A stretch of 64,000 nt of DNA from Candidatus Omnitrophota bacterium (GCA_018062515.1 JAGOSC010000005.1:880-64879), one strand, 5' to 3'. Counted from the first letter of the stretch, positions 9,794-52,088 are shown. Translations and numbers: made by a program. The notes: generated by a model not told the origin, from the sequence alone.

Positions 9794-9798
9794 CTAAT

Positions 9799-21822: not shown

Positions 21823-21851
21823 TTGACAATGGATCGACTTTAATGTATACT
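21823..21851 (+). promoter_or_regulatory. Sigma70-type promoter for the giant-gene operon
   Basis: TTGACA (21823-21828), 17-nt spacer, TATACT (21846-21851). It lies ~170 nt upstream of the ORF A ATG in the only sizeable intergenic gap before the 30-kb cluster. Confidence 0.6.
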
Positions 21852-22018
21852 CGTTTCAATTCAATAAGTAGTTCCAAATTCCCCAATCTTTAGAAGTTAA
21901 ATTTCACCCAACTTTAGTTAATTTTATTTTTTGCAGCGCGTCTTTTTTTTGATGCCCTTTATATTTTTTTGTCAAATTTAGATAAAAATTTGTTTAAACT
22001 ATTGAGAGGAAATGAGTT

Positions 22019-23090
22019 ATGATGATTTTTAAAAGAAATAAAAGAAATTTAACCCGAAAAATAACTTCCACCTTTGTCTTATTTTCATTTATTTTCTCAT
22101 CAATACTACCTCCTCAAGTCTCGGCGCAGAGCGTATTCCATTTACCTATACCTGGGACCCTGTTTAATGTTACAAATACCTTTAATCCTTTTATCATTCA
22201 AGGGCTTACTGTAGATCCGCAAAATCCTCTTCATTTCAGTTTTATTATTGACACCGGCGACACGCAAACAAACGATCCAGACGCTTTCCGCTTAGAATCT
22301 ACAAAACTAGTCAAATATTTCTTAGCATCCTTAACCGTTCCCGAAGATCAAATGTGGGTTAACCTTTCTCCGTATGAAGGCAACCGCATTATTTCGGACA
22401 CATTTGGTCAAACCGAAATGGGCCGTGACTTATTAGCTCAAGATTATATTCTCAAACAAATGTCGGCTTCTTTAACGTATTCAGAAGAAGAATTGGGTGA
22501 AAAATTTTGGCACAGGGTCCACCAACGCGCAAAAAAAGAATACGGCGTTAAAGATATTCCTTTAAATACTTTTAATAAAGTATGGATCATTCCTCAGAAG
22601 GCAACCGTTTATGAACATGACGGCAGCGCGTATGTCGTCAATAGCCGGTTAAAAGTAATGATGGAAGAAGATTACTTAGCCTTAAACAAAAATATCGGTG
22701 AGCAAGCTTTTGGTATGAATAATGTCAAGCAAGATGAGGCGGAATCCACGAGTAAAGTTACTTCCGCCATCATTAAAGAAATTATTATCCCGGAACTCGA
22801 GAAAGAAGTGAATGAAGGCAGCCATTTTGCCAATTTGCGTCAAATTTATCAGTCGATGATTTTAGCGACCTGGTACAAAGTGAATTTAAAAGAATCACTT
22901 TTAGGAAAAGTTTATATTGATCAAAATAAAGTCCAAGGAATTGATTTAAACGACAAAAACGCGAATCAGAAAATTTATGAACAATATTTAGCCGCCTTTA
23001 AAAAAGGTGTTTACAACTATATTAAGGAAGACTACGATTCAGCCACTCATAAGTCAACACCTCGTCAATATTTCGCCGGCGGATTTGTTC
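22019..23090 (+). other. Leader plus shared N-terminal module, copy A (unknown family)
   Basis: MMIFKRNKRNLTRKITSTFVLFSFIFSSILPPQVSA|QS, then LPIPGTLFNV...GLTVDPQNPLHFSFIIDTGD...FLASLTVPEDQMWVNLSPYE...FGQTEMGRDLLAQDYILKQ...NLRQIYQSMILATWYK...AFKKGVYNYIKEDYD...PRQYFAGGF. Colinear with the same region of ORFs B, C and D. Confidence 0.85.
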
Positions 23091-26000
23091 CAAAAACCGA
23101 AGATAATGCGACTTTAGCAGAATTGATCACACGAGAGAAGACCACTCGTTTAGCCGCTACGGATCAGGCAGCTTTAACTCCGAAAGGAAACCAGATTCGA
23201 GCTGATTTCGCTTTATTAGAAGACTTAACCGATGAAGATGCTCCAAAGGTACAAAAACCGATTGAAAAAATTGAAGACGCGCAGATAGCTGTGGACCCTA
23301 ATTGGGTTGAGGACTATTTGGAAAATCTTTTCCCTGAAAACAGCTTTCCTAAACCAGTCAAACAAGAACCAGTCATTATCAGCAAAGAAAGAAAAGAATT
23401 AGAAGACGAATTAATCGCCAATCGTTCTCAATTCTCGGGCTCTAGAATAAATCGGAATATTAAGGAAAAAACAGGGCTTGACGTTCCCGAGGACACTGTC
23501 GATTATTTCGTCGAGCATAGTGGAACCCTCCCTGGATTAAATCACCGTGCTGACCGTTCCCAGGTTATAGGGCAACTTATCCGCAATCATCGTCCTTATG
23601 AAATCTCTAAATTATTTGCCTTATCAGAATCCAAAAATTTTGAAAGAAAATATTATCCTGCCTGGATCCAAGCTTTATCAAAAATATTTACTTTTTTGAA
23701 AGATAAAAATTCAACCATTAATACAGAATTAACCGTTCAAGTCAATTTAGACGGAATTCTTTTAATTAAAGACGGCTCGGGAGAAGAACTCAAGGCGTTT
23801 CAGAAATTGGATCAATTGCACACGGAAAAAGCTTCCGTCGGTGCACTGGCCCTTCAAATTGTCAAATTATTAACCCATGATTACGACGGTTTGGAACTCA
23901 CCAACACTAAAGAATTGTCAGATGATTTAGTATCCATCTTTAATATTTTCGGAATCAAGCCGACGGTGATTAATGATGCGTGGATGCAAACTGTCCTGGG
24001 ATACGGAGATTCTTCATTAAATCTTCAAGCTCTAAAAGAAGGCGTTGAAGTAACTGAAGCTGATGTCGACACTTATCTTTTCCGTCTGGACACAGAAAAA
24101 AGTTTAGCTCGTCAAGCCGGAGAGACTGTATATCTTTCTACGCGCTCAGAAGCCGTCGCTGAAATGATTAAAGAAAATAAATATGATTCTGCTCTTTTAG
24201 CCTCCATCGATGAAAAGGCTTTAACACCGGAAATTCTTACTGCTTTTGGCGGAAATGTAACGGCCGCACAAACGGTCGTGGCCGAGCGTCTTGAGGCTAT
24301 GCGCGTCGCTGATCCGAATGCCACCGTCGAGCAAGCTGTCGCCCGTTTAGCTTGGGAATATAAGCCGCGCGATATTCAAAACGTTTTTCCTGGAGACAAC
24401 TGGAAATTTATGTTTTTGGCCGCCAAAGCCGGCATGAAAGCTCCGATTCTTTTATTAGACTTGGAAGACGCAGTTGCGACAACTCGTAAAGAAATTGCCC
24501 GCGGTGTTATCGTACAATTGATCCGGGCTTTTAAAGGTGAAGGATTAACACAAGATGAATTTGATTTCTTGCAGAAGAACGCGCTTCAGGCTGATGATGA
24601 AAAATATCCGATGACTAGTTTCTTTACACAAAGTCTTGTCGACGGAAAAACTGTTTATACGTTAAATCCTGAAAATCAATTCCATAAAGATCAAATGGTT
24701 CTTTTCCGCCCGAATAATTTAAGAACAAAGTGGTCGGCAGGGGATTATTCTCAAGTTTTTCGTAAAGTCGGTCATTTGGTAGACGGTATTTATATGCCTA
24801 AAGTAGAAGGCCCAGAAGATATCAAAATCGGCGCGTCTATTTTACGCGCCATTCAGAAAGAACAAAACTGGGTCGTTGGTCGTCACAAAATTTTTGTTTT
24901 AACCGAACTTCCCGGCGCTGTTTTGACCGCTGAAAATATTTTAAAAATAGCTCCTGAAGTTGAAGAAGTTCAATTAGGAGTCGTCGATTACACCGCAGCG
25001 ACGGGTGGAAAAAATCAAGTTCAAATCGAACAATTTCCATTTATGCGTTATGCCTTATTACGCTTGGTTGAAGCCGCTAATAATATAGGGAAATCCGCCG
25101 GTTTAGGTATTACCGTTCAATTTACTCCAGAAGCAACAGCCGAGGATACAGTCAAGGCTATTAATATTGGCCTTCATCGCAAATGGAGCGTTCATCCAGC
25201 GCATTTGAAAGGCATGGAATCATTCATCGGAAAATTCCCAAAGATTGTCCGAAAAGATATTCAATATGATGAACTACAAGGATTTGATTTGGTACAGCTA
25301 GATCAATACGCTAGTGAAAGCCGTCCAATTTTAGCTCCTAAAGTTTTAACACCTAAAGATGTGGTTTTATCCAGAGCTGTGGTCACTGTTTCATCCGGAA
25401 ATATTGATGGGCTTAAAAAAGCTCTGGATTCAAATGCTGATACTATTATTTTGGATTTCGGGAAAAAAGAAAATTTGTCTGAAATTAAAAAAATATTAGT
25501 TCAGGCTAAAACAACAAAGAGTATTCTTGTTGTCGATGAGCTTGATTCCCTACAATCAATTAAACAAATTGTAACTGAGTTAAATGGATATTTTCAAGGA
25601 TTTAACCTGAATAACATACAGAATGCATCAACAGTAAGAGATGTGGATGGATTGTTATCAGAAGCAGAAAGTGATTTGGGATTAAACGCAGGCAGCTTAA
25701 AAATTGCCGTCAGCTTTAATGACCCGCAAGTGGTCGAGGAGCAATCCCGCTATCTCGGCACCGATCCAGCTAAAGCTCTTTTGTATTCCAGTCAACGCCT
25801 CAGCTGGGCCATCTTGAATTTGCCTACCATGCCGACTGAAGATTTAGATGATCCGGAAACGAGAGGATACAATTATTATCATTCTTTATTTATTGCCATG
25901 ACCGCTCATGCCGAAGTCGATTCCATCGACGGTTATAGCGCGGATGAGAATTTAACAGAACAAGTTGCGACCTCAGCCATTTGGGGATTTCAAGGAAAAC

Positions 26001-29000
26001 TAGCTAACTTGAATCAAGTTGATGAAATTACTGAAGCCATGAGCCCGCAGCGAGCTGGAATTATGCCAGAATTTTCTACTCCAGAGGAACGTAAAGCTTG
26101 GTTAGCTACTGCCGAAGGAAAAATTTATGTAGCACGTTGGAAAAATTCATTAGAACGAGATTTGGAACTGATGGATCTGTATGCCGAAGCGGATCAAGAA
26201 CGGCAATTAGGTGCGGTAGGTTATAAGGATCCTTTAACCGGCGCTATTGAAATCGTCGACGCTGCTTCAGCTCGAATTCCATTCCGACAATTAGAAAAAG
26301 CTTTAAAGACAAATCAATTAACCGATACGGAAAAAGTTCGATATGCAAAATCACGAGAAAAATTACTTTTAGCCATGCGTCCAGGCGGACGAGAAGGCAG
26401 CGGTGAAAAAGTTTTTGCCGGGCAAAAAATTACAGCTCCGGCCATTGTGATGCGTCCTTGGATGGTTAATGCGTTTGCTAAAGATGGCGATCAAAACCGT
26501 TATCATTTAGATGAAGCTTATGCCAACGCCTCAAAATTTAAAGGATTAGTTGCTCATGGATTATTGACGGTAACTAAGGCTTTAAGTTCTTTAAAAGCTC
26601 AATTACCGGCTTATAAAATTGAAGAAGTCGACGACGCTAAATTCTTAGCTCCTGTACGCTTTAATGATACGATTACCCCGGTCATTGATGTTACGAGTGT
26701 CGACAATGAAAAAGCCAATGTAAAAATTAGTGTAATCAATCAAGACGGAAAAACAGTCAGTGAAATCAAAGTTTTATTAATAGAAAGCACTGATTCTCAA
26801 ATCATTCCAAAAATTAATAATGATTCTTTAAAATCAGCAGAAAAGGTGCCGGCTTCTATTCCGGCCGTCATTTACGATTTTACTGATCCACAAAGTCCTC
26901 GAGAACAAACGTTCAAGCAGGAAATCACATCCAGTTATTTAGAAAATGTTCAAGGATCTAATTTGATTACAAGCCGGGATTTATTAAGTCAATTAGCTGC
27001 CTTTAAAATGATGGCCGGTACTTCCGCCAATGCCGTCCCAGGCCACATATTATTGAATGCAACAAATGTAAAATTCGGAGCTGAAATTCATTTAGGTGAT
27101 GTATTGACCGCCAAAGCTACTGTTCCTGCAGCTGATCAAATTAAATTGACTAAAGACAATCTTCCTAAAGTTCCAGTCACGATTGAAATCACGAATCAAA
27201 ATGGAGAAATGGTTTTAAAAGGACAAGTATTAAAACTCATGGAACCGGGTAAAGATCGAGCGATGCTGGCCAAAAAACCATACCTTCTGCCAAGAGGAAA
27301 AATTGTTACATCGCCGGATGAACTTCCAACACATATGGAAGCATATGTAGTCCGACGCGGTGAGCATGGTGACCCAATTGATGCGTTTAAAAAATCCATT
27401 CAACCCGTTCCCGATGTGGGCGATTATGAAGTCCTTGTCCAAGTTATGGCTGGAGGATTAAATTTTAATGGAACATGGGCCCTTCAAGGTCTTCCCATTT
27501 CTCCATTTACTTATCCTTTGAATAAATTCCACGATGAACAACGCTTAGGTAGTGATGCTTCAGGCATTGTTGTGGCCGTTGGCAAACATGTCACACAATA
27601 TAAAATTGGTGATCAGGTTGTTATGGCTACCGGTGAAGATGACCGCGCTGAAAAAGATCCTGATCATGGCGATACCATGCAAAAACGAACGTTTGTTATC
27701 ACCGGGTATGAAACTCCGGATGGAACGTTCGGTCAATTTGTCGCTTTGGATGAACGTCAAGTACATCCGAAAGAGGCAAATATGACTTGGGAACAAGCCG
27801 CCAGTTATCATTTAGTCGCCGACACAGCTTGGCGAGATATGAAATACAAACTGGGTGTTAAAAAGGGAGATACTGTATTAATCTGGGGGGCATCAACAGG
27901 AGTAGGAGCTTTTAATGTCCAGATCGCTAAATATTTAGGAGCCAAGAATATTGTGGCGGTTGTTTCCAGTGCTTCAAGAGCGGAACAAGCCAGAAAATTC
28001 GGGGCCACTCAAGTGATTAATCGAACTGAACTTCCTAAAATTTTGGGATACAGTGATGCTGAAATTTGGGGTGAACTCTCTAACAATCCCCAAAAGCAGC
28101 AAAAACAAATTGAAATGTTAAATAAGTTCAGAGAATATTTTCTTTCTCTAACGGGTGGTGAATTAGCCGATGCCGTTGCGGAACAAATCGGCCAAACAAC
28201 TTATCCAATTAGTCAATATTTAGCTAAAGATTCCGGAAAAGTCACTCATTTTGCCGGAACATTTGGTTTCAAATTTACCTTTATGGGAAAAGATTTACCG
28301 TTGGATGAGAATACAAAAAAGCAAAAAACGCCACTTCAAATGTTAGAAGAAGCTGGTGTACGCGACGCTAAACGAGTGCTGATATATGGTGCTGATCAAC
28401 TTTCTAAAGAAATTTTTGAGGAAGTTAAAAAATACAGCACTAATATTGCTTTCATCGTTAAAAGCCAAGAAGAACAAAATACAGTCGAAAACTGGGATTT
28501 AGAAAAGACATATATCAAAGGTATTGTAGATTTAAATCCGATTTCTTTTCCTGAAGATATGCCTACACCTCCTCATCCAGACATCCCGGCAGATAAACAG
28601 GCAAAAAATCTTGAAGAATTTAATGAGTATCGTATCAAAGTACTGGATCCAATCCGAGGATCGGTTGTAAAAGCTTTAGGCGGTCAGCCCGACTTAATTG
28701 TTGAAAGAGCGGGGAACAAAAATACTTTGGATATCAGCGTATTTGTCGTGCGTCCTCATGGCGTCGTAACATATGTTGAATCAACAAAAGGAAAACGTTT
28801 AGTCTTTGATGCCCGATTTATTTGGATGTTCCAAAAGCAAATTTATCCTTGGGTTCTTGGGACTCATTATGCGAACCACACACAAACCAAGGAATTAAAT
28901 GATTTAGTTTTAAAAGGCATCATAAGCGTACCTGAACCCGAAGTATTTTCTTGGGATGAATTACCCTTAGCCCAGCAGAAAATGTATGAAAATAAATTAA

Positions 29001-29941: not shown

Positions 29942-29957
29942 TAAGGGACGCAGCTAA

Positions 29958-42200: not shown

Positions 42201-45200
42201 TGGACTCCTCCAATACAAGAGAAGCCAGAAATTTTTGATCAAGATATACGGAACTTTATCGAAACACAAAAAAATCTTATTGGGAATAGCTATCAAGAAA
42301 TTTATGACCGAGGGATTGCCCGCGGATATTTCTTGGCTGGCGACATGCCATATGTTAGACATTTGCATGTTGAAGAGCGCCCCGGGGAGTATCCATATAC
42401 ACGCGGAATTATTAAGCAGCGACCAGAAAAATTAAATAACATTAGTGGATATTTATTAAGAGAAGCTGGGATGGATGGAATGCAGGAATTGGCTTTGAGT
42501 TTATTTGCTGCTAAAAAGGAAATTGAAAAAGGAAATACTCCCAGCGAACGTGCAGACATTGCCAATCAAATCCGTATTGTGCTTTCTTCCAGCGATAATT
42601 TTATGGAAGAAACCGCTCGAATATTTTTAGCACGTAGAATGTGGGCTGAAATGCTCAAAGAAATGGGAATCACCGATGAAAATGCATTGCAATTGATCGT
42701 CGGTGTTAAAACCGATGCAACCACATACACGGAAGATAAACATTGGCTGAATATTAGCCGCGGCACACGTCAAGCATATCAAGCTTATTTAGCCGGTGTT
42801 GATCCGCAAGATATTATCATTACCCGTTTTGATGCTCCTTATGGCCATACAGATCAAACTCGATTAGCCGAACAAATTGCCAAAGATACTCTCGATGTAT
42901 TCCGTTATGAATTACCCAAAAAAGTTCAAAATCCTTTAAGCGGAATGTTTGCTTTAGAAGCTAAGATCGAAACAATGGAAGGTGAATTAAAAGCTGAATT
43001 AACAAAACTTGAAGATTTGTCATCTGATAAAAAATCAATATCTATTTCCGCAGAATCTGAAATGAAAGCCCTTATACCTGTTACCAATGTTACTGGATCC
43101 ACGGGTGTTCCAACTTGGTTAACTCCGTCATTAGCGAATTATCTGATCACTTCACTTTTACATTCGCAGGCTGTTCAGCTAGCCAAAGTTACCGCCGGAT
43201 TGACTCCAAAAGTAGGCGAGAATATTAAAACCAGTTCGACGAAATATTTTCCGCCAATGAATACCGAGGCCATGGGTATGAAACTTCTACCGCCATCAGA
43301 ACAAGTCACCATTGATGCCTTAGCCTCTGATTCAGAGGATTTAAGAATTGCAATTGCGGACGCATGGTTCAATCAAGCTGCAAATTTATATACAAAACTT
43401 TTAGGCGCGCTTCATCTTAATAACAGTAATCGTCATATTACAAAACTCCTCAGAGGTTTAGCAGCGGCTAATTTAAGTGTGAATGCTGAACAATTTTCAA
43501 AAATTGCTGAAAAATGGTCAATTATTTCTGAAGGCGATCAATTCACTATTCAGACGGATAATGGATCACAACTGAATATTATCCGTGATACTGATCACCA
43601 AGGGAAAATGGGCATTGAATTGGCGGGAAATGTTTCAGAAATAATGCGGTATGTTTCACAGTATACACTAAAAAATAAAATGACTAAAAAAGATAAATTA
43701 CGTATTCTCGTCGCTAAACCAGGACTTGATGGTCATGATGTCGGTGCACGAACAATCGCCAATGGCTTTCGTGACGCCGGCTTTGATGTAATTTATACGG
43801 GATTGCAAAACACCCCGGAACAAATTGTGGAAACAGCTCGCCAAGAAAATATTGATGTCATTGGGTTAAGCATTCTTTCTAACGCTCATAATTCGATTGG
43901 ACCAAAAGTCGCTAGCCTTTTAAATAAGAATGGAATGGATGATGTTTTTGTCGCCATGGGCGGAATGATTCCTGACGATGATCAGCGTAATTTATTTCGA
44001 AAAAGCGCGGTCAACGCAATCTATATTGCCGGTACAACCATGCAAAAGATTGTTGACGATATCAACCATTGGAATGAATGGCGGGGGAAATCAGATAAAA
44101 TAAAAATCACAAATGATCATCAGTTTACGGCAACATTATTCGATGGAAGTTCAGTCGAAGTTGTTGTCATCAATAAGGAAATTCCAACAGCTAAACCGGT
44201 CACGGACGTAGAAGAAACGGAAATTCCTCAAACTGCTTTAGCCGTGCCAACAAAACTAGGCCCATTGCATCGATCAAATATTCCCGTCGTTGAAGGCGTT
44301 TGGAGCGATGATCCAGAAATTCGAAACCGTGCTCTACAACACTATGCTTTAGCTGGAGACATATTGTTAGAACAGGTCATAAAAACGAGTCCAGTACTGG
44401 GACGATTTATTATTCCGGTTTCGAATGCCGTTTCTCCTCATATTGAACACGCCACTGTTGCCTCAGCTGGAATTGCTTTAACACCCGAACATTTTGAACA
44501 AGCCTGGGAGGCTAATGGAAACCCTCATCGTTCCAATGTACCGGAAGACGTCCGTGCAGAAGAATTTGAAGTTATAGTAACAATGCCCGATGGAAGTAAG
44601 CGAATTTTGGATATTCTTCGTGATAAAAAGGATGACTTTGAAGCTGGCGATATTGTCCGAAGAAAGATAGACGTCTCACACACGTTGGTTGAAGCATGGA
44701 ATAAAAAAGCTAAAACCAACCCTAAAGCCAAAGATCAAGAAGCAGAATGGTTAAATATGACCATAAAACAAATTCTTAATCCGCCGTTTGCTTCAAATAT
44801 TTTTCCAGCTAATGCGATTGTGATAAAGGTTCAAAACAGAAATAGTGAATTGGACCGAGGTATTATTGAACTTGATCAAGAATTAAATATTTACGTGAAG
44901 GTTCTCGACGTCACCCCATTTAATCAACAAACTGTCGACGGAAAATCATTCATTAAAGCGGATGTCATCGTTAAAGATAAAGAAGAAAACATTCTCATCG
45001 ACAGTATCGTCACAGTCATGAAACCGCTGACCATCGCTCGTCATATTAATGAATACAGTGAAGCGGTGATTCAGCAAGTTGAAGTTTGGACCGACGACAT
45101 TCAAGCGGCTCACAAAGCGATTTCCGCAGCGGCTAAAGATAAAACAAATGGTATTAATGTCGTACTGCCTGTCCGTGACGGAGCGAATGGAACAAAGGTT

Positions 45201-45560: not shown

Positions 45561-45566
45561 TAAACC

Positions 45567-46600
45567 ATGAAAAAGAAAATTTTCCTTATGAAAAAGTTTG
45601 TGTCTATATTAATTCTTTGCGCATTTACAATGAACACCATTGTTCCGCCGAGTTTGGCGCAGAGCATATCGTCAACGATCCTACCGCCGGTAGGTTCAAT
45701 GCTAACCATGACACCATCGTTTGTTCCGATACAAATCAAGGGTCTAACCATCGATCCCGAAAATCCTTTGCATTTTGAATTTATCATCGATACCGGCGAT
45801 TCAAAAATTGTAAACGATGAAGAATTGCGCGCCGAAACAACAAAACTGGTTAAATATTTTCTTACATCGCTGACCGTTCCGGAAGAAGATATGTGGGTCA
45901 ATCTTTCTCCTTATGAAGGAAATCGTATTGTTACCGACGGATTCGGACAAACGCAAATGGGTCAGGATCTCTTAGCGCAAGATTATATTCTAAAACAAAT
46001 CACCGCATCATTAATGTTCCCTGAAAAAGAGTTGGGCAAAAAGTTCTGGGATAAAATTTATCAGAGAGCAGAACAAGAATACGGAACTAAAGATATTCCA
46101 ACGAATACATTTAATAAAGTATGGATCATTCCGGAAAAAGCCACGGTTTATGAGCATGACGGCAGTGTTTTTGTTATCGAAAGCCGTTTAAAGGTTTTAT
46201 TGGAAGAAGATTATTTTGCCCAAAGAAAATCTGAAGGAGCCTCCGTCGATCCAAATAAATCTGTGTATACCGACATCGTTCGAGAAATTTTAATTCCGGA
46301 GATTGAAAAAGAAGTCAATGAAGGACAGCATTTTGCCAAACTGCGTCAAATTTATAATGCGATGATCTTAGCGACTTGGTATAAAACCAATCTGCAAAAA
46401 TCCGTCTTAGGACAAATTTATGTTGATCAAAATAAGTTGGAAGGCATTAACGGCGAGAATAAAAACGCTAAGTCAGATATTTATAATCAATATCTCAAGG
46501 CTTTTAAGGCCGGCGTTTATAACTATATTAAAGAAGACTATGATTCGACAACTCGGTCAACGATTCCCCGACAGTACTTCTCCGGTGGATTTGCCGCTAC
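45567..46600 (+). other. Leader plus shared N-terminal module, copy D
   Basis: MKKKIFLMKKFVSILILCAFTMNTIVPPSLA|QS, LPPVGSMLTM..GLTIDPENPLHFEFIIDTGD..FLTSLTVPEEDMWVNLSPYE..FGQTQMGQDLLAQDYILKQ..KLRQIYNAMILATWYK..AFKAGVYNYIKEDYD..PRQYFSGGF. Confidence 0.85.
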
Positions 46601-49600
46601 TTCAGATAAAGCGGCATTATCCACCGTAGTTAAGGAATCAAACCTGGGTCAAAACAACACGCCGTTATCCGACGAGGACTCAGCACTCATCGCAGATGCA
46701 TTATCCGCGCGAGGCAAACAGTTTAATACAGATATCCTCCTTAGAGAAGCCGTCTCGGGGATAACTTCCGGCGATGAAGCTATTCTTAGTTCTTTTACTG
46801 AAGATGAAATTGTGTCACGAATTCTAAATACTCCATATGATCCGATAAAAATTGGTCAGCAAATGCGGGCATGGTACGCTGATGGTAACCTCGACGCTGA
46901 TATCTTAAAAGCAACCTTGACCAATTTAAGCCGCCGTGTTGTGTACGTAAAAAGTACAGCTGATTTAAAAGACTATGAAAAAATGAAGCCTTTTTTGATC
47001 AAGACCTGGGCGCTGCTTAAAGAAGCGAATGACTCTCAGTATACCGAAAGCATTTCGATCATTGAGAGAACCATGGCCTACTCCTTATATATTTCGGATC
47101 CAAAATTATTTTATGCCGAACCGATTGAATCCATGGTCGCTGATTTAAGAAAAATTAAAGACAGCACCGCGGATGAACGTATTAAATTTGATGAAGCTTG
47201 GACACTGATTTCCAAACGCTACAGCCAAAAAAATCCGCGAGATATTTTTTATATCGCCCGGGCGATGAAACGTCCCAAGGCCTCAGATATTGTTAAAAGT
47301 TCTTTATTTAAAGATTTCATGGAATTGCGGGATGCCAAAGATCCGCTCGACCCTCAAAAAAATGAACGTTACACGCCGACGGAAAATGAGATTCAAGAGG
47401 CCATGTCGATCGGGTTCAAAGATAAATTAGAAGCCCGTGAATATGTCATTGCCAAACGAGACGCCCAATATGATGACGCATCCGTACTTACGGGAATAGG
47501 GACTTTTGTGGATCCAAAAACCGGAAAAGAGACAAAAGTTATGGTTGTTGCTTTACAAAATGGAAGTGATATTAAGGAATTATTTGAAAGAAATGCCGGT
47601 TTAAACCGCCCGTGGGGATATTGGAAAGCGATCCGCGCTTTTCGTTTGGCGGAATCTACAGAGTATAGAATTCCAATTGTCACTTTTGTTGACACGAAGG
47701 GGGCGGATAACACATTACCGTCGGAAATCGCCAATCAATCGGGCGTGGTTTCCTACGCCATACAAGTTCAACAAGAGCTGACGGTTCCGTTTATTTCCAT
47801 CATCAATATCGACGGCGTAAGTGCTGGAGGCATGGTTGTCACTCAAGGCGGCGCATTATATATGATGGATTATTCGAATCGATATTTAGCTGCTCCGGCA
47901 GGGTCTTTAGATATTATCGGCAAAGCAAAAACGACTATTCCCGTCGCTGAGCAACGCGGCGTGAAAGATACAATCGGAATGCAAATCATTGAAAAAGAAG
48001 TGCAAAGTGTGTGGGGAGATGCTTTTCATGCGGACGCGAAAAGATCATTGGAAGAATTAAAAACCATTTCCGGAATTATCCCTGAAGCGCTCGGTGGTGC
48101 GCATCGATTCCCTGAACTTTCTTATGAAATGATAGGCGATGTCATTCACAATTACTTAAAGGAAAATGCCAACAAAACAGTTGCGCAGCTTAAAGCCCAG
48201 CGTCATGACTTTTTCCGTCGATTAGGTGGAATTCCTGAAAAAGATTTTAGAATCGTCGACGATCAAGATGTCCCAACCTTGACCAAATCCATCATCACAC
48301 CGGATGAATTTGCACAGTTGGTGGAAACTATTCTTGACAATAAACAAAATACCGAACGTATGCTCCATGCGTATCGCCAGTACACTTTTACACTGAAATC
48401 AGCGAAACAAAAAAAAGAGGTTGTCGCTGTATGGATGAAAGTTTTTAGAGCTAACCGCAGCTGGTTTGATAATCGCTGGATGGTCAAAGTTTTAAATGCT
48501 TCGTTAACAGAATTTGAAAAGAAGGGAACGCAAAATGCTAAAACTCTTAAAGAGGCGATGATCAAGAGTTTCTTTCCGGAACCGCGCAGTATTGCTGATC
48601 GTCTCGAACAATTTGTCGACCGCAAAAAAGATGGAAGTTTGGAGATTATTGAAGAATTAAATGCGAATTTAGCCGAGACACCCATCATCGATTTTGATGA
48701 AACCATTCATGAAGCCTATCCCTTTTTGAAGATTGATGGCCAGGATATTGCGGCCAAGTTTGACCAATTCCGCAAATTAACCGGCTCATTAACCGGCGTT
48801 TGGACCGGTTATGTTAAAATCGGCGGAGTAAAGACGATGCTGGTTTTAAAAGATCCACGCTGGTTGAACGCCAGCGCAACAACGGCCGTCATCGGCGAGA
48901 AAGTGACCCGCGCCTTGGAAGATGTGCGTCAAAAATTTGATAAAACCAAAGAAAAAATTCCCGTGATCATGTTGACGACGGCGAGCGGTGCTCTTCAGCA
49001 AGAAGGCCAGCGCGCTATGGACCCGTTAAATAAAAAACTCGCTGGATTGGTTGAATTGAAGGAACGAAATATTCCCGTCGTGATTTTAGGTGCCTACGAA
49101 GTTTTCGGTGGTGATAGCGCCTCCGACGCGACATATCAAGATGCTGATCTTTTACTATTAGAAAAAGGGACAAGAAAAGGATTCACCGGCCACCCGACGC
49201 TGACCGGAGAAAATGATCGACGTAAGAAAAAAGGTGTTAAAGATACTTCGCAAAATGAGGTTGTGCCATTAACCGTTTTGCCTTTTCCATATCAGACTGA
49301 TCAGTTCTTAGACCGGCTTGGATTTATCGATGGAATTGTGACTGTCGAGCAAGAAACGCCTTTATTACAAGCTTTCTTACAAGACGTGACTAATAAAGAA
49401 CTGACTGTTAAATCCGAAGAAATTAAAGAACTTTTAAAAACCTTTAAAGACAAACGTGAAATGCGAGTAAAGCTTGTACGCGCCTTGGAACGAAAACCAT
49501 TTAAGACGACGTTTCAAAATGGAAATGAGGCTGAAGTTTTTAATCTGCGAAATAAGGCAAGACTATTGATGAATCAGCCAGGCATTGGCTGGCGTTATGA

Positions 49601-52088
49601 AAAGCCCGCAACAGGCCAAGAAACGGTGAATTCAGATGAAGCCATGCTGACCAACGTTTATGAAAATGCTGAAACGATGTATCAAAATTTGCCGCAAGAT
49701 ATTGAAAAATTTATGATGAGTACGGCATCGAAAATTAACGGCGGTGAAGCTGTAATGAATGATCAAAAAGCGATTACGGACATGATGTCCTTAATCGGAG
49801 AAATTTATGAAAAAGAAATGGACGGCCTGACGACGAAAAATTATCACAATCATATGCATAATCTTTCTGTCTCATTTGGAAGTTTAATTCTCGCCCAAAA
49901 TGCAAATTTAATTAAAGATAAGAATGATTTGATTATCGTCTTTTTAGGATCATTGTTTCATGATTTTCATGTGCGCGATGTCCGTCCTTTGCGTGAACGC
50001 GGCCCGGCAACGCCCGCCTTGGTTAATGAAACATTAGGTATTGAAGGATCAGGTGGGCAGCTCCCTGATTTATTAGCAATAGATGGATTCGTTTATAAAA
50101 ATCCAGCTATTGCCAATGCGCGTTATGGAGTGGTCGGAACCGATGTTAAAAAATCGGCCCGGGAAATCTATCAAACTTTAACTGGTAATGATGGTTCAAA
50201 TGGAATTTATAATGAAATTGCCGCCATTATACGGCGAACTGATTTTTCATCGGATCTCCCGCCAGCTATCGATAAGTATAAAAACCGTACTTTTGTTGTC
50301 CGCGATTTTATGGATGCAAAGGTTAATGAATGGTCACAAACGAAATCAGAAATATCCGACACTGATTTAACGCAACTCATTAATCAGGTGGAAAAACAAT
50401 ACCAGGATATTTATACTGATATGGCTCGGGACAAAGAATTGACTCCTGTAGGAAAAAGGGAAGTTTCCGAGAAGTGGGTAACACGTCAGCGTAATATTGA
50501 ACTGGCCTTCTTAAATGCTTTAACTAAAGTCAGATCTTCTCGACGATTAAATGTTTACCAAATAGCCAATCGTGTTGAGCTGGCCGATCAATCTGTTGCC
50601 TCGTGGATCGGATCCCCGGATATTGCCAAAAATATCACGTTAGGACTTAAAGAGGAACTGCCTTTTGTCAGCATCGAAGCTAATTATCCCTTATTTTATA
50701 CACCGCAATTATTACCCACACGGGTTTTATCACGCTTAAGAGATCTTCCCCTCAATTTAAGAATTAATTTCTTAAAAAATATGGAATATTTTGCCAGTTA
50801 TAGTACTGATTTCGCTAAAAATCTGAATGATGAGCAGAAAACGAAAATAAATGAATTTGTTTATAAGATGATGTTAAATTCTTTAGGAGAGTGGGACAAG
50901 ATTGAAGAAGATGTCCTTATGGAATTACGACTATATGTAGATGAAGAAGGTCAGATTAAACAACAAAGAATGGATCCTGAAGTAGTGCAGGGACTGAGAA
51001 AATCTATTATCGGAACAGTCTTTAACCTACGTGACATACATTCAATGGTTGCACAAAGAACAGTGAAAAAAATAAACTTGGCAGCAAATCAAACGATCAT
51101 TGAAGAAGGTGATGTCATTAATCACAAGAATTCAGAAGGTCTTTACATTATTATTTCCGGGGAAGTTAAGGTTATTGTCGGTGGAAGTCCTGTGGCAACG
51201 CTTAAGGCGGGGGACCATTTCGGAGAATTGGCCATCATCAGTCGCCTACCGCGCAATGCCACTGTTGTTTCCACTAGTCCTACAGTATTGGTTAAAATGC
51301 CGAGCAGATTTTTACATGGATTAAGATTAGTCAGCGATGAATTTAGTGATGCATTATATGCTGAAGCCAGAGCTAAAACGCGAAAAGGAACATCGATTCT
51401 GCCATATTGGGTTGAATCAGAAATTGTCATGAAAATGGCGCGGTCAAACCAAATATTAAATGAACAATCTAAAATTTTAGCTTGGCAGATGCCACAGTTT
51501 GTTAGGGGAAATGAAAATAAGAGCGAACGTTTAACACTCCAAAGCGTATATGACCGTTTACCAGCTGCCCTTTATGAATTTGAAAATGATTATCCTGAAA
51601 TAGGACCGATTAAGCTTGTTGGAATTGCCTCTAACGGACCGTCCGTCAGTGTTTATGTGGATCCGATTGACCATAAGTCGATTGTGGTTTTCTCCGATGA
51701 TTTCTTTAAGAGAGACTTGGACAACTTTAATCAACGTATAAAAACGGCTTTGCAGACTGCGATGAATGACGCGGCCATGTTCGCTGATGATGAATCTCCC
51801 AACGCTTTAACCAAAGGTGGTATTGATTTAAATCCCCAGGCGCTGGACCTAAAAATTAAAAATACCGGCACACAAATTCCTTTTCCCGTCGATGAGAACA
51901 TCGAACAGTTTATCGATATCAAAGGATTTTCTCCTGTCATTATTAATATAACCCCGATCCACAATCTTCCGCTTATTTTAGGAATCATTGATGGGAAGAA
52001 TGACCAATCTCCCCAAGTTAAAAGTGATCATTTTCCGTTATATAACGTGAAAGGTCGTTTTGAATCCGTCGAGGATTATCCTTCCTAA
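45567..52088 (+). CDS. Giant fusion protein D (2173 aa): leader + shared N module + AccA-like and AccD-like carboxyltransferase halves + HD domain + cyclic-nucleotide-binding domain + shared C module
   Basis: ATG 6 nt after the ORF C stop. 6.5-kb open frame. Motifs are in the sub-features. Confidence 0.88.
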   Translation: MKKKIFLMKKFVSILILCAFTMNTIVPPSLAQSISSTILPPVGSMLTMTPSFVPIQIKGLTIDPENPLHFEFIIDTGDSKIVNDEELRAETTKLVKYFLTSLTVPEEDMWVNLSPYEGNRIVTDGFGQTQMGQDLLAQDYILKQITASLMFPEKELGKKFWDKIYQRAEQEYGTKDIPTNTFNKVWIIPEKATVYEHDGSVFVIESRLKVLLEEDYFAQRKSEGASVDPNKSVYTDIVREILIPEIEKEVNEGQHFAKLRQIYNAMILATWYKTNLQKSVLGQIYVDQNKLEGINGENKNAKSDIYNQYLKAFKAGVYNYIKEDYDSTTRSTIPRQYFSGGFAATSDKAALSTVVKESNLGQNNTPLSDEDSALIADALSARGKQFNTDILLREAVSGITSGDEAILSSFTEDEIVSRILNTPYDPIKIGQQMRAWYADGNLDADILKATLTNLSRRVVYVKSTADLKDYEKMKPFLIKTWALLKEANDSQYTESISIIERTMAYSLYISDPKLFYAEPIESMVADLRKIKDSTADERIKFDEAWTLISKRYSQKNPRDIFYIARAMKRPKASDIVKSSLFKDFMELRDAKDPLDPQKNERYTPTENEIQEAMSIGFKDKLEAREYVIAKRDAQYDDASVLTGIGTFVDPKTGKETKVMVVALQNGSDIKELFERNAGLNRPWGYWKAIRAFRLAESTEYRIPIVTFVDTKGADNTLPSEIANQSGVVSYAIQVQQELTVPFISIINIDGVSAGGMVVTQGGALYMMDYSNRYLAAPAGSLDIIGKAKTTIPVAEQRGVKDTIGMQIIEKEVQSVWGDAFHADAKRSLEELKTISGIIPEALGGAHRFPELSYEMIGDVIHNYLKENANKTVAQLKAQRHDFFRRLGGIPEKDFRIVDDQDVPTLTKSIITPDEFAQLVETILDNKQNTERMLHAYRQYTFTLKSAKQKKEVVAVWMKVFRANRSWFDNRWMVKVLNASLTEFEKKGTQNAKTLKEAMIKSFFPEPRSIADRLEQFVDRKKDGSLEIIEELNANLAETPIIDFDETIHEAYPFLKIDGQDIAAKFDQFRKLTGSLTGVWTGYVKIGGVKTMLVLKDPRWLNASATTAVIGEKVTRALEDVRQKFDKTKEKIPVIMLTTASGALQQEGQRAMDPLNKKLAGLVELKERNIPVVILGAYEVFGGDSASDATYQDADLLLLEKGTRKGFTGHPTLTGENDRRKKKGVKDTSQNEVVPLTVLPFPYQTDQFLDRLGFIDGIVTVEQETPLLQAFLQDVTNKELTVKSEEIKELLKTFKDKREMRVKLVRALERKPFKTTFQNGNEAEVFNLRNKARLLMNQPGIGWRYEKPATGQETVNSDEAMLTNVYENAETMYQNLPQDIEKFMMSTASKINGGEAVMNDQKAITDMMSLIGEIYEKEMDGLTTKNYHNHMHNLSVSFGSLILAQNANLIKDKNDLIIVFLGSLFHDFHVRDVRPLRERGPATPALVNETLGIEGSGGQLPDLLAIDGFVYKNPAIANARYGVVGTDVKKSAREIYQTLTGNDGSNGIYNEIAAIIRRTDFSSDLPPAIDKYKNRTFVVRDFMDAKVNEWSQTKSEISDTDLTQLINQVEKQYQDIYTDMARDKELTPVGKREVSEKWVTRQRNIELAFLNALTKVRSSRRLNVYQIANRVELADQSVASWIGSPDIAKNITLGLKEELPFVSIEANYPLFYTPQLLPTRVLSRLRDLPLNLRINFLKNMEYFASYSTDFAKNLNDEQKTKINEFVYKMMLNSLGEWDKIEEDVLMELRLYVDEEGQIKQQRMDPEVVQGLRKSIIGTVFNLRDIHSMVAQRTVKKINLAANQTIIEEGDVINHKNSEGLYIIISGEVKVIVGGSPVATLKAGDHFGELAIISRLPRNATVVSTSPTVLVKMPSRFLHGLRLVSDEFSDALYAEARAKTRKGTSILPYWVESEIVMKMARSNQILNEQSKILAWQMPQFVRGNENKSERLTLQSVYDRLPAALYEFENDYPEIGPIKLVGIASNGPSVSVYVDPIDHKSIVVFSDDFFKRDLDNFNQRIKTALQTAMNDAAMFADDESPNALTKGGIDLNPQALDLKIKNTGTQIPFPVDENIEQFIDIKGFSPVIINITPIHNLPLILGIIDGKNDQSPQVKSDHFPLYNVKGRFESVEDYPS
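47200..48225 (+). other. Carboxyltransferase alpha (AccA-like) domain
   Basis: IARAMKRPKASD, NRPWGYWKAIRAFRLAESTEYRIPIVTFVDTKGA, SGVVSYAIQVQQELTVPFISIINIDGVSAGGM, IIPEALGGAHRFPE. It is colinear with E. coli AccA as I recall it, but the glycine-rich GEGGSGGA motif is altered. Confidence 0.7.
48690..49330 (+). other. Carboxyltransferase beta (AccD-like) domain, divergent, no zinc ribbon seen
   Basis: GYVKIGGVKTMLVLKD, AVIGEKVTRALE, IPVIMLTTASGALQQEG, IPVVILGAYEVFGGDSASDA, KGFTGHP, YQTDQFLDRLGFIDGIV. It is colinear with AccD. FMGGSMG is replaced by WLNASAT. Confidence 0.6.
49790..50300 (+). other. HD-domain (metal-dependent phosphohydrolase-type)
   Basis: NYHNHMHNLSVSFGSLILA....VFLGSLFHDFHV gives the H...HD pattern. 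Confidence 0.55.
51010..51330 (+). other. Cyclic-nucleotide-binding (CAP/PKA-type) domain
   Basis: NQTIIEEGDVINHKNSEGLYIIISGEVKVIVGGSPVATLKAGDHFGELAIISRLPRNATVVSTSPTVLVKM is the classic beta-roll with the FGE(L/I)A...R.A(T/S) phosphate-binding cassette. Confidence 0.75.
51813..51990 (+). other. Shared C-terminal module, copy D (most divergent)
   Basis: KGGIDLNPQALDLKIKNTGTQIPFPVDENIEQFIDIKGFSPVIINITPIHNLPLILGIIDG, followed by a polar tail. Confidence 0.8.

What the first reader, a model, noticed from the sequence alone, without database searches (positions are those of the whole stretch)
21823..52088. 30-kb operon of four paralogous giant genes: a common N/C scaffold carrying different fused acyl-CoA enzymes
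A single consensus-like promoter (TTGACA-17-TATACT) is followed by four ORFs of 2640, 1727, 3472 and 2173 codons, separated by 16, 0 and 6 nt. In DNA this AT-rich, stop-free frames of 5-10 kb cannot be accidental. All four proteins begin with the same leader plus ~310-aa module and end with the same ~60-aa module. Their interiors are completely different chains of recognisable acyl-CoA enzymes. This is not NRPS/PKS, adhesin or toxin architecture. It looks like a family of carrier proteins into which whole metabolic enzymes have been inserted as cargo. I do not recognise the terminal modules or this arrangement as any described system.
Basis: partly seen in the sequence, partly recalled or inferred. 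Interest (0 to 1): 0.95.

Follow-up and report, generated by a model that had tools for sequence, protein, structure and literature searches.

The report
Exported carrier proteins loaded with enzymes
Four neighbouring giant genes of an uncultured Omnitrophota bacterium belong to a huge, apparently undescribed protein family in which a secretion signal and two conserved end-pieces bracket strings of ordinary metabolic enzymes, so whole pathways may be sent out of the cell's own cytoplasm.

Summary
Four same-strand ORFs of 2640, 1727, 3472 and 2173 codons are spaced by 16, 0 and 6 nt. Each carries a Sec-type signal peptide, a ~315-aa N module and a ~55-aa C module. The interiors are divergent acyl-CoA enzymes: Ccr-like reductase, MaoC hydratase, CitE/malyl-CoA-lyase-like domain, several acyl-CoA dehydrogenases, acyl-CoA ligase, B12 mutase and AccA/AccD-like carboxyltransferase, plus a cNMP-binding domain.

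This is not a one-off. The N…C bracket defines a family of at least 8,700 cluster representatives, and named hits are almost all Omnitrophota MAGs. Some members have no insert (438 aa); others carry inserts over 4,400 aa. Members often sit in tandem arrays. Cargo elsewhere includes GAPDH+PGK+enolase, isocitrate lyase+malate synthase, phosphoglucomutase and receiver domains. Cassettes are shuffled between members at a recurrent D-x-A-M-L linker motif.

Neither module matches Pfam, NCBIfam or PHROGs. An AlphaFold model matches no solved or viral fold. I found no description in the literature. A 2026 preprint notes multi-enzyme giant proteins with signal peptides in this phylum, but not this scaffold.

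Best reading: an exported "handle plus cassettes" carrier. Destination and catalytic competence outside the cytoplasm are untested. Interest is high.

The parts
21823..21851 (+). sigma-70-like promoter candidate, TTGACA-17-TATACT
   Evidence: 11 of 12 positions match; consensus match only
22019..29941 (+). G1, 2640 aa: signal peptide, N module, cargo, C module. NCBI names it 'zinc-binding dehydrogenase' (P0399).
22019..22126 (+). G1 signal peptide, aa 1-36 (...PPQVSA|QSV)
22127..23083 (+). G1 N module, aa 37-355, ends in YFAGG
24431..25216 (+). G1 HpcH_HpaI / CitE / malyl-CoA-lyase-like domain, about aa 805-1066
26420..26773 (+). G1 MaoC-type (R)-hydratase domain, aa 1468-1585
27317..29008 (+). 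G1 reductase resembling crotonyl-CoA carboxylase/reductase, aa 1767-2330. It carries an insertion of roughly 140 aa in the Rossmann domain and is collinear with the reductase domain of propionyl-CoA synthase (6eqo).
   Evidence: (TIGR01751: 342 bits against a 378.55 cut-off)
29660..29824 (+). G1 C module, aa 2548-2602 (GGIDFN...PVLIETMPINLPLILG), followed by a 38-aa acidic tail ending in SILN
29958..35141 (+). G2, 1727 aa: signal peptide aa 1-36 (29958-30065), N module aa 37-348 (30066-31001), two acyl-CoA dehydrogenases, C module aa 1638-1693 (34869-35036)
31425..32933 (+). G2 acyl-CoA dehydrogenase 1, FadE-like, aa 490-992. The catalytic Glu motif SIFEGANE is kept at aa 855.
33300..34673 (+). 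G2 acyl-CoA dehydrogenase/oxidase-like unit 2, aa 1115-1572
35142..45560 (+). G3, 3472 aa: signal peptide aa 1-36 (35142-35249), N module aa 37-350 (35250-36191), cargo, C module aa 3387-3441 (45300-45464). NCBI's call (P0431, 3426 aa) starts 46 codons later and so omits the signal peptide.
36378..37973 (+). G3 acyl-CoA ligase (AMP-binding plus its C-terminal domain), aa 413-944. Motif STGTTGESK at aa 594.
38148..39980 (+). G3 partial acyl-CoA-dehydrogenase-like unit (aa 1003-1195) followed by a full acyl-CoA dehydrogenase (aa 1225-1613)
40581..44033 (+). G3 B12-dependent acyl-CoA mutase: catalytic barrel aa 1814-2354, second mutase-like (beta-like) domain aa 2433-2625, B12-binding domain aa 2854-2964 with DxHxxG (GLDGHDVGA)
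45567..52088 (+). G4, 2173 aa: signal peptide aa 1-31 (45567-45659), N module aa 32-341 (45660-46589), cargo, C module aa 2084-2139 (51816-51983). NCBI names it 'cyclic nucleotide-binding domain-containing protein' (P0391).
47193..49382 (+). G4 acetyl-CoA-carboxylase-type carboxyltransferase: AccA-like about aa 543-890, AccD-like about aa 1036-1272
49632..51821 (+). G4 portable cassette, aa 1356-2085. It begins at the DEAML linker motif and holds an unannotated ~400-aa domain plus a cNMP-binding domain (aa 1803-1917). It is shared at 49% identity with P0392, where it sits beside adenylate kinase and PGK cargo.

Best explanation
G1-G4 are four paralogues of a very large family that named hits place almost entirely in Omnitrophota. 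I found no name for it.

Every member is built the same way:
- a cleavable Sec-type signal peptide (K/R-rich start, hydrophobic core, proline-rich end, small residues at -3 and -1, Gln at +1);
- a strongly conserved ~315-aa N module;
- a variable insert of 0 to more than 4,400 aa;
- a ~55-aa C module at the extreme C-terminus.

The N and C modules probably fold together into one small 'handle'. The cargo is then a giant insertion at a single permissive site of a small exported protein.

The cargo consists of portable cassettes. Each is a divergent copy of a cytoplasmic-type enzyme or regulatory domain. Cassettes are often separated by a D-x-A-M-L-like linker motif and are strung together in pathway-coherent sets.

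In this window the set is acyl-CoA chemistry:
- ligase;
- dehydrogenases;
- MaoC hydratase;
- Ccr-like reductive carboxylase;
- B12 mutase;
- malyl-CoA/citrate-lyase-like domain;
- carboxyltransferase;
- a cNMP-binding regulatory cassette.
These are the enzyme families of the ethylmalonyl-CoA pathway and the 3-hydroxypropionate bi-cycle.

Proposed working, with the status of each step:
1. The four genes are co-transcribed. Inferred from spacing and one promoter-like site.
2. Each polyprotein is threaded out through Sec. Inferred from the signal peptide.
3. The conserved handle directs all family members to one common extracytoplasmic destination: a surface coat, a vesicle, or a host or prey cell. 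Inferred.
4. The linker motifs may be processing sites that release the enzymes. Speculative.

What is shown: the architecture, the family's size and its Omnitrophota predominance among named hits, the cassette shuffling, and the retention of key catalytic motifs in the mutase, one dehydrogenase and the ligase.
For: Architecture in the window.

Family size: 8,722 representative proteins at E<=1e-3 and 6,272 at E<=1e-30.

The bracket is the rule: 132 of the best 150 representatives have both modules, with the C module 0-38 aa from the end. The 80 loci show the same, often as tandem arrays.

Insert-less members: P0116, P0081 and P0026.

Signal peptide over 277 members: -3 is A/S/V in 77%, and +1 is Q in 246 of 277 (the site was anchored on A followed by Q/E/A, so -1 = A is by construction). 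Median length is 36 aa. G1-G4 have no internal transmembrane segment.

Handle. In the N+C model of P0116, C-module residues 371-390 reach pLDDT 87-88 and form strands. The same residues modelled without the N module reach only 55-71 and form no strands.

Uniform constraint. N modules of any paralogue or genome are about 55-65% identical. Homologous cargo is only 22-49% identical.

Cargo catalogue. Examples are P0474 (GAPDH+PGK+enolase) and P0410 (isocitrate lyase+TIM+malate synthase).

Cassettes and motif. D-x-[AS]-M-[LIV] occurs 185 times in 120 members, against 11 in shuffled sequences. It sits at unit boundaries. The alignment of G4 with P0392 starts at position 1356 in G4 and 1336 in P0392, one residue before the motif at 1357 and 1337.

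Enzyme integrity. The mutase keeps the Arg207 and Tyr243-His244 equivalents and DxHxxG, and scores 355 bits against human MUT. ACAD1 of G2 keeps its catalytic Glu, and the ligase keeps its P-loop-like motif.

Lifestyle context. Omnitrophota are inferred to be host-dependent, predatory or parasitic nanobacteria (PMC10066038). RNA from a predatory member accumulates in prey cells (PMC13153191).
Against: The cargo needs ATP, NAD(P)H, FAD, CoA thioesters and adenosylcobalamin. No known periplasm supplies these, and Sec exports unfolded chains.

Other family members carry receiver domains, and G4 carries a cNMP-binding domain. These normally work in a cytoplasm.

No dedicated secretion or processing gene is conserved next to the arrays.

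Signal-peptide cleavage, export, processing at the motif and enzyme activity are all untested. N-C docking rests on pLDDT alone; coordinates and PAE were not available.

The cargo enzymes are unusually divergent. All fall below NCBIfam equivalog cut-offs, and the enolase, GAPDH and PGK of P0474 score only 212-254 bits against PDB homologues. Some units may therefore not be catalytic.
Confidence: 0.5

Rival explanations
1. Membrane-tethered cytoplasmic metabolons. The hydrophobic leader is an uncleaved anchor or membrane-association element, and the handle is an assembly or tethering unit. The enzyme strings then stay on the cytoplasmic side, channelling intermediates of one pathway.
For: The cargo is of cytoplasmic type and cofactor-dependent. 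Family members include receiver, HATPase and cNMP domains. A response-regulator gene lies within 10 kb of the family gene in 12 of 80 loci, and a putative histidine-kinase gene in 6. Pathway-coherent fusion is a known way to channel intermediates; the G1 reductase is collinear with the reductase domain of the fusion enzyme propionyl-CoA synthase (6eqo).
Against: The leader has all the features of a cleaved type I signal peptide. These include conserved small residues at -3/-1 and a positively charged start, which predicts that the chain goes outward. No second transmembrane segment brings the chain back. Ordinary housekeeping enzymes in the same window are stand-alone and lack the bracket.
Confidence: 0.2
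2. Exported but not catalytic. Enzyme folds have been recruited as building blocks or ligand-binding modules of a surface coat or adhesion layer, and they evolve fast at a host interface.
For: The cargo is much more divergent than housekeeping orthologues. About 40-65% of each protein has no recognisable domain. The ACAD of G3 lacks the canonical catalytic YEG/FEG motif. A 'coat' has been described for Velamenicoccus (PMC10066038).
Against: Key catalytic and cofactor motifs are retained in the mutase, in ACAD1 of G2 and in the ligase. The cargo sets are pathway-coherent both here and elsewhere, which is hard to explain for purely structural use.
Confidence: 0.15
3. Targeting to an internal, membrane-bounded metabolic compartment that is topologically outside the cytoplasm, comparable to the way signal peptides target enzymes to the anammoxosome. 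The handle would act as the sorting or retention element.
For: A signal peptide is combined with metabolic cargo. The cargo spectrum (glycolysis, glyoxylate-cycle enzymes, acyl-CoA oxidation) recalls what glycosomes and glyoxysomes contain. Omnitrophota belong to the PVC group, in which compartments are known (established knowledge).
Against: No compartment has been reported in these ~0.2-um cells (PMC10066038). No transporter or shell genes are linked to the arrays. This reading is pure inference.
Confidence: 0.07
4. Assembly chimera or decaying pseudogenes.
For: The sequence comes from a MAG contig. Some homologues in other assemblies are broken by frameshifts (L001).
Against: There are four intact frames of 5-10 kb. 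The same proteins are present in NCBI from a 64.9-kb contig. Thousands of independent homologues have the same bracket. GC content is uniform.
Confidence: 0.01

Closest known systems
MARTX toxins (multifunctional autoprocessing RTX toxins)
   Same: Conserved N- and C-terminal regions bracket a variable, shuffled set of central functional modules separated by linkers. The modules are swapped between paralogues and strains. Known MARTX processing cuts after Leu; the motif here ends in Leu, Ile or Val.
   Different: There are no RTX or glycine-rich repeats, no cysteine protease domain, and no type I secretion signal or linked genes. These proteins have a Sec signal peptide instead. The cargo is central-metabolism enzymes, not toxins.
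Type IX secretion cargo proteins of Bacteroidota
   Same: An N-terminal Sec signal peptide that often leaves Gln at +1 (the 'Q-rule', from my own knowledge), a variable functional body, and a small conserved C-terminal domain that acts as the sorting signal.
   Different: The C module gives no match to Por_Secre_tail or any other Pfam or NCBIfam model, even at a permissive E-value threshold (10 for Pfam, 1 for NCBIfam). There is also a conserved 315-aa N module. The cargo is of cytoplasmic type.
Multi-enzyme 'metabolic cluster' giant proteins of Omnitrophota (bioRxiv 10.64898/2026.06.07.730766)
   Same: Same phylum. Long polypeptides tile many cytoplasmic-type enzyme Pfam families behind a predicted signal peptide, and the same topology paradox is noted.
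   Different: That catalogue covers proteins of at least 10,000 aa, mostly with many transmembrane helices. My searches of its text found no conserved N/C bracket, no insert-less members, no cassette motif and no acyl-CoA set. Whether those giants carry the same modules was not tested.
Fusion enzymes of acyl-CoA carbon pathways, e.g. propionyl-CoA synthase (PDB 6eqo) of the 3-hydroxypropionate bi-cycle, and the enzymes of the ethylmalonyl-CoA pathway
   Same: The enzyme families are the same: ligase, hydratase, Ccr-type reductase, B12 mutase, acyl-CoA dehydrogenase, MaoC hydratase, malyl-CoA-lyase family and carboxyltransferase. The G1 reductase is collinear with the PCS reductase domain.
   Different: All scores fall below equivalog cut-offs. 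No biotin carboxylase/BCCP, epimerase or thiolase was recognised. The units are embedded behind a signal peptide, between the N and C modules.
Viral polyproteins, and the polyvalent proteins of phages and conjugative elements
   Same: Several unrelated activities sit on one chain with recurrent junction motifs. One family member carries an ART-PolyVal domain.
   Different: The genes are chromosomal and lie among housekeeping genes. No protease domain was identified, and no phage-family match was found.

Membership tests
Sec (type I) signal peptide | Positively charged n-region, hydrophobic h-region, and a c-region with small residues at -3 and -1 | tested here: met
   All four genes fit, as do 277 family members in which a cleavage-like site was located. 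The site was anchored on A followed by Q/E/A, so -1 = A is by construction; -3 is A/S/V in 77%. There is no Cys at +1, so they are not lipoproteins, and no consistent twin-arginine, so they are not Tat substrates.
Sec (type I) signal peptide | Experimentally demonstrated cleavage or export | not testable with these tools
   Needs reporter fusions or N-terminal proteomics.
MARTX toxin | N- and C-terminal RTX-type glycine-rich repeat regions | tested here: not met
   No RTX or hemolysin-type repeats among the Pfam hits listed for G1-G4. The N and C modules have no Pfam hit at all.
MARTX toxin | Inositol-phosphate-activated cysteine protease domain (Peptidase_C80) | tested here: not met
   Absent from the Pfam hits listed.
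MARTX toxin | Variable central effector modules between conserved arms | tested here: met
   This is an analogy of architecture only.
Type IX secretion cargo | C-terminal Por_Secre_tail / T9SS CTD | tested here: not met
   The C modules give no Pfam hit at E<=10 and no NCBIfam hit at E<=1. The only weak Por_Secre_tail match is internal to G1 (E = 0.007, below the cut-off).
Type V autotransporter | A beta-barrel translocator domain at one end | tested here: not met
   No autotransporter Pfam family was found. The N module is predicted as mixed alpha/beta with long helices.
NRPS/PKS megasynthase | Carrier (PP-binding) domains with KS/AT or C domains | tested here: not met
   Only one AMP-binding ligase domain was found. 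No PP-binding, KS, AT or condensation domain is present.
Encapsulin or bacterial-microcompartment cargo | A linked shell gene (HK97-fold or BMC domain) plus a short targeting peptide | tested here: not met
Ethylmalonyl-CoA pathway enzyme set | Ccr, ethylmalonyl-CoA mutase, methylsuccinyl-CoA dehydrogenase, mesaconyl-CoA hydratase and malyl-CoA lyase, each at equivalog level | tested here: inconclusive
   All five enzyme families are present, but every score is below the equivalog cut-off. Examples: Ccr 342 against 378.55, and the mutase 520 against 876. Substrate specificity is unknown.
Omnitrophota 'multi-enzyme metabolic cluster' giants (2026 preprint) | At least 10,000 aa, with many distinct enzyme Pfam families and a signal peptide and/or transmembrane helices | tested here: inconclusive
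   Same phylum, same signal peptide and same enzyme tiling. G1-G4 are only 1.7-3.5 kaa and have no transmembrane helices. Whether those giants carry the N and C modules was not tested.

The most novel reading that the evidence does not exclude
Host-dependent Omnitrophota export whole metabolic pathways as single polyproteins. A conserved handle (N plus C module) takes each chain to a common site outside the producer's cytoplasm: inside or against a host or prey cell, or in vesicles. Cassettes released at the D-x-A-M-L linkers then run glycolytic, glyoxylate and acyl-CoA chemistry on the victim's metabolite and cofactor pools for the benefit of the nanobacterium. This would be 'exo-metabolism', a form of energy and carbon parasitism, carried out with a delivery scaffold of a previously unseen fold.
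Probability: 0.2. Interest if true: 0.95.

Novelty: categorically new. Interest (0 to 1): 0.88.

Why it matters
If the reading is right, one of the most widespread uncultured bacterial phyla devotes a large share of its coding capacity (47% of this window) to a protein architecture that no database models. That architecture is a small exported handle which tolerates kilobase-scale insertions and is used to move or organise sets of metabolic enzymes.

Three consequences follow.
- It bears on the topology paradox raised for Omnitrophota giant proteins and makes it testable: cytoplasmic enzymes behind signal peptides.
- It would change metabolic reconstructions of these organisms. Enzymes now counted as cytoplasmic pathway steps, such as 'phosphoglycerate kinase' or 'triose-phosphate isomerase', may be exported paralogues.
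- It offers a natural, insertion-tolerant secretion scaffold and a defined linker motif for protein engineering.

Even if the enzymes stay inside the cell, a phylum-wide system of scaffold-bracketed, cassette-shuffled pathway polyproteins would be new biology.

Tried and rejected
Family and fold searches that found nothing:
- Pfam, NCBIfam and PHROGs on the isolated N and C modules.
- PDB sequence searches of three dark cargo segments. Pfam on ten unannotated cargo segments added only a partial ACAD, a second mutase-like domain and weak extensions of the HpcH and AccA hits.

Technical problems:
- MAFFT repeatedly misplaced C-terminal fragments, aligning their GG to the YFSGG that ends the N module (A2 and local tests). 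I solved this by trimming (A3).
- The search for homologous proteins returns only hits shorter than about 1.8 times the query length. The first two searches therefore showed fragments only; a full-length query was needed.

Analyses with negative results:
- Neighbour-gene clustering in 80 loci found no conserved partner. The top clusters were antisense shadow ORFs, and a response-regulator gene appears in 12 of 80 loci and a putative histidine-kinase gene in 6.
- Rfam found no riboswitch in the 165-nt leader of the operon.
- Literature searches found no description of the scaffold. The Velamenicoccus proteome paper (PMC9004380) is not held.

Explanations considered and rejected, each after a failed defining feature: NRPS/PKS, autotransporter, type IX secretion cargo, MARTX membership, encapsulin or microcompartment cargo, Tat signal, lipoprotein, polymorphic toxin, assembly artefact.

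Not attempted: dN/dS, because the orthologues are too divergent, and N-C covariation, because there are too few sequences and clade structure would confound it.

Full report
**1. The observation**

The window has four consecutive + strand ORFs:
- G1, 22019-29941, 2640 aa;
- G2, 29958-35141, 1727 aa;
- G3, 35142-45560, 3472 aa;
- G4, 45567-52088, 2173 aa.

They are separated by 16, 0 and 6 nt. None has an internal stop. GC content (0.38-0.43) matches the surroundings. A stop-free frame of 3472 codons in DNA of this composition has a chance probability of roughly 1e-98 (my own arithmetic).

A TTGACA-17-TATACT site lies at 21823-21851. It is a consensus match only. Rfam finds no riboswitch in the ~165-nt leader.

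BLASTP of the four products against each other gives 48-57% identity over the first 400-495 residues. It gives 35-55% over the last 59-118 residues. HMMs of the two ends hit nothing else in the six-frame translation of the window.

The one exception is that G2 and G3 share acyl-CoA dehydrogenase domains.

**2. Anatomy of the four proteins**

Each protein starts with a 31-36-aa leader that has the features of a type I signal peptide. There is a K/R-rich start, a hydrophobic core, a PP-containing end and a (V/S)-x-A|Q site.

A ~315-aa N module follows and ends in a near-invariant YF(S/A)GG.

Each protein ends with a ~55-aa C module, followed by a variable acidic tail. The C module reads GGIDLNPxxLDLQIKRDGxGIPLPxxxQ...GFxPVIIxITPxxNLPLLLG.

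No internal transmembrane segment exists.

Cargo of each protein:
- G1: a HpcH/CitE/malyl-CoA-lyase-like domain, a MaoC hydratase, and a reductase resembling crotonyl-CoA carboxylase/reductase. The reductase scores 342 bits on TIGR01751, against a cut-off of 378.55. It is collinear with the reductase domain of propionyl-CoA synthase (6eqo).
- G2: two acyl-CoA dehydrogenase or oxidase-like units.
- G3: an acyl-CoA ligase, a partial and a complete acyl-CoA dehydrogenase, and a B12 mutase. The mutase has a catalytic barrel, a second beta-like barrel and a B12-binding domain.
- G4: AccA-like plus AccD-like carboxyltransferase, then an unannotated ~400-aa domain and a cNMP-binding domain.

About 40-65% of each chain remains unannotated.

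Key motifs survive:
- the mutase keeps the Arg207 and Tyr243-His244 equivalents and DxHxxG;
- the first dehydrogenase of G2 keeps its catalytic Glu;
- the ligase keeps STGTTGESK.

All cargo scores fall below NCBIfam equivalog cut-offs. These are divergent paralogues, not textbook orthologues.

Together the families are those of the ethylmalonyl-CoA pathway and the 3-hydroxypropionate bi-cycle. Specificity cannot be called, and no biotin carboxylase, epimerase or thiolase was recognised.

**3. Not a one-off: a very large family**

The N module alone has at least 1,255 homologues. Those that carry a source name are almost all from Omnitrophota MAGs.

A full scan of 1.84 billion representative proteins with an insert-less member (P0116, 438 aa) gives 8,722 hits at E<=1e-3 and 6,272 at E<=1e-30. 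Of the best 150:
- 132 carry the N module at the very start and the C module 0-38 residues from the end;
- their inserts span 210-4431 aa, with a median of 768.

The 80 loci kept are all MAGs: most are labelled Omnitrophota and the rest 'uncultured Planctomycetales' or unclassified 'bacterium'.

In those 80 loci nearly every complete ORF has the same bracket. Lengths run from 784 to more than 3,700 aa. Tandem same-strand arrays of three or four are common. The exceptions lack one module or look split by frameshifts.

The source contig itself is in NCBI. It is 64.9 kb, and G4, G1 and G3 correspond to P0391, P0399 and P0431. They are annotated naively as 'cyclic nucleotide-binding domain-containing protein' and 'zinc-binding dehydrogenase'. 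NCBI's G3 call starts 46 codons late and so loses the signal peptide.

**4. What the family carries**

Pfam annotations of 38 representatives and of the 120 best full-length relatives of G4 show cargo dominated by cytoplasmic-type enzymes, often in pathway-coherent strings.

Enzyme families seen:
- sugar and glycolytic enzymes: phosphoglucomutase, UDP-glucose pyrophosphorylase, PGK, PGI, TIM, FBP aldolase, GAPDH, enolase;
- isocitrate lyase plus malate synthase, PEPCK, PPDK;
- adenylate kinase, NDK, starch synthase, methyltransferases, EPSP synthase;
- regulatory receiver, HATPase and cNMP domains.

Examples:
- P0474: GAPDH + PGK + enolase (+ aldolase);
- P0410: isocitrate lyase + TIM + malate synthase.

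Many members have no recognisable cargo.

The acyl-CoA set recurs in other MAGs in a different fusion order:
- in L015, mutase + B12 + AccA/D-like domains sit in one giant, and ligase + MaoC + HpcH-like domains in the next;
- in L023 there is a double dehydrogenase.

Scaffolded enzymes are unusually divergent. The enolase, GAPDH and PGK of P0474 score only 212-254 bits against PDB homologues.

Ordinary housekeeping genes in this window are stand-alone and lack the bracket. They include hom, a thrC-like gene, coaB, apgM, ask, a leuA-like gene and valS.

**5. Cassettes and a punctuation motif**

A short motif, D-x-[AS]-M-[LIV], is 17-fold enriched in family members: 185 occurrences against 11 in shuffled sequences. 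It sits in linkers at unit boundaries:
- in P0474 it precedes the natural N-terminus of PGK, and it also lies two residues before the GGIDL of the C module;
- in P0419 it precedes the GAPDH N-terminus.

In G1-G4, strict or relaxed copies flank the cargo on both sides and separate some units:
- G1: 382, 1746, 2524;
- G2: 410, 1610;
- G3: 414, 948, 1748, 3379;
- G4: 403, 1357, 2068.

The 730-aa cassette of G4 (aa 1356-2085) is shared at 49% identity with P0392, where it accompanies adenylate kinase and PGK. The alignment starts at position 1356 in G4 and 1336 in P0392, one residue before the motif at 1357 and 1337.

Cargo is therefore made of portable cassettes delimited by this motif. Whether the motif is a protease site is inference only. 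It is also not universal: only 35 of 120 members show the strict form on the N side.

**6. The handle**

Neither module matches Pfam, NCBIfam or PHROGs.

An AlphaFold2 model of the insert-less P0116 has pLDDT 74 and pTM 0.69, with a core above 90. It is a mixed alpha/beta fold with two beta-hairpins and long helices. It has no significant match:
- Foldseek against PDB, best E 0.12;
- Foldseek against BFVD, best E 0.067.

In the N+C model, the first part of the C module reaches pLDDT 87-88 and forms strands. Modelled without the N module, but with the same C alignment, the same residues reach 55-71 and form no strands. This suggests that C docks onto N. Coordinates and PAE were not available, so it stays a suggestion.

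N modules from any paralogue or genome are uniformly about 55-65% identical, while homologous cargo is 22-49% identical. This is the pattern expected if all members must fit one common partner or lattice.

**7. Where do they go?**

Leader statistics over 277 members show a type I signal peptide: small residues at -3, Ala at -1 (fixed by how the site was located), Gln at +1 in 246 of 277, and a median length of 36 aa. The Gln at +1 recalls the Bacteroidota 'Q-rule' (my own knowledge). There is no lipobox and no consistent twin-arginine.

Selection for such a leader across thousands of paralogues argues that the chains engage Sec and are cleaved.

Against this, the cargo needs ATP, NAD(P)H, FAD, CoA esters and B12. 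Some members also carry receiver or cNMP domains.

A 2026 preprint on Omnitrophota proteins of at least 10,000 aa meets the same paradox. It describes 'multi-enzyme metabolic clusters' predicted to have signal peptides. My searches of its text found nothing on this bracket, on insert-less members or on the motif.

The other Omnitrophota papers I could reach do not mention the family either.

Omnitrophota are inferred to be host-dependent, predatory or parasitic nanobacteria (PMC10066038). Predator RNA accumulates in prey cells (PMC13153191). A destination at or in another cell would reconcile the signal peptide with the cargo, but nothing here shows it.

No secretion or processing gene is conserved next to the arrays.

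**8. Verdict**

Real, highly non-random, and a member of a very large family with an architecture I could not find described.

My best-supported reading (0.5) is an exported handle-plus-cassettes carrier. Rivals:
- membrane-tethered cytoplasmic metabolons (0.2);
- exported non-catalytic coat (0.15);
- targeting to an internal compartment (0.07);
- artefact (0.01).

The nearest analogues by architecture are MARTX toxins and type IX secretion cargo. Both fail membership tests on their defining domains. I rate it categorically new, with the caveat that the 2026 preprint has noted enzyme-tiled signal-peptide giants in the same phylum.

Noticed in passing
window 100-2086: An ORF6N/Rha-type phage regulator (100-699) and a tyrosine integrase (930-2012) directly abut tRNA-Pro(GGG) at 2013-2086. 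GC is only 0.33 in the first 2 kb. This looks like the edge of an integrated mobile element at a tRNA gene.
   Followed up: partly
window 59502-61166: A 554-aa protein with an HTTM domain plus the lumenal domain of vitamin-K-dependent gamma-carboxylase. This is an unusual eukaryote-like enzyme for a bacterium.
   Followed up: no
window 53849-55177: A full-length serpin (Pfam E = 2.8e-127) with its own signal peptide. It lies 1.8 kb downstream of the array, after a small TPR protein (52180-52773) and a SAM methyltransferase.
   Followed up: no
window 35142-35279 (start of G3): The NCBI gene call for G3 (P0431, 3426 aa) starts 46 codons downstream of the GTG used here and so omits the conserved signal peptide. 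Automated annotation probably hides the leader in other family members too.
   Followed up: partly
family-wide; in the window e.g. G1 aa 1746, G2 aa 410 and 1610, G3 aa 414, 948 and 1748, G4 aa 403, 1357 and 2068: A linker 'punctuation' motif, D-x-[AS]-M-[LIV], is 17-fold enriched in the family. It marks cassette boundaries and the junctions of cassettes shuffled between members. It may be a processing site.
   Followed up: partly
N module about aa 300-320 and C module start, e.g. G1 aa 304-321 versus aa 2548-2560: The N module contains a G(I/V)D(L/V)xD stretch (NKVQGIDLNDKN) that resembles the GGIDLNP start of the C module. MAFFT repeatedly aligned C-module fragments to the wrong part of the N module, including this stretch and the YFSGG end, and the C HMM gives weak hits there. 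It could be a shared structural element or chance.
   Followed up: no
L084 (GCA_030765585.1) versus window 8121-12408: The leuA-like and valS gene pair lies upstream of a family member in both genomes, but the cargo differs completely: GAPDH+PGK+enolase there, acyl-CoA enzymes here. This hints at a hypervariable locus.
   Followed up: no
L001 9956-14562 and other loci (L012, L030, L037, L067, L077): Several homologues in other assemblies are split into an N-carrying ORF and an overlapping or adjacent C-carrying ORF. This is consistent with frameshift errors or real frameshifts in long genes. Database proteins of 400-550 aa that have only the N module are often such fragments.
   Followed up: partly
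window 20454-21782: The gene immediately upstream of the array encodes a BrkB/YihY-family membrane protein, with a weak Rrf2-like match in its C-terminal ~100 aa (E = 5e-4, below the cut-off).
   Followed up: no
G4 about aa 1400-1500 (window about 49,760-50,070): The unannotated part of the portable cassette contains H...HD...D-like motifs (HNHMHNL..., LFHDFHVRD) suggestive of an HD-type phosphohydrolase next to the cNMP-binding domain. This rests on sequence inspection only; no Pfam hit was found.
   Followed up: no
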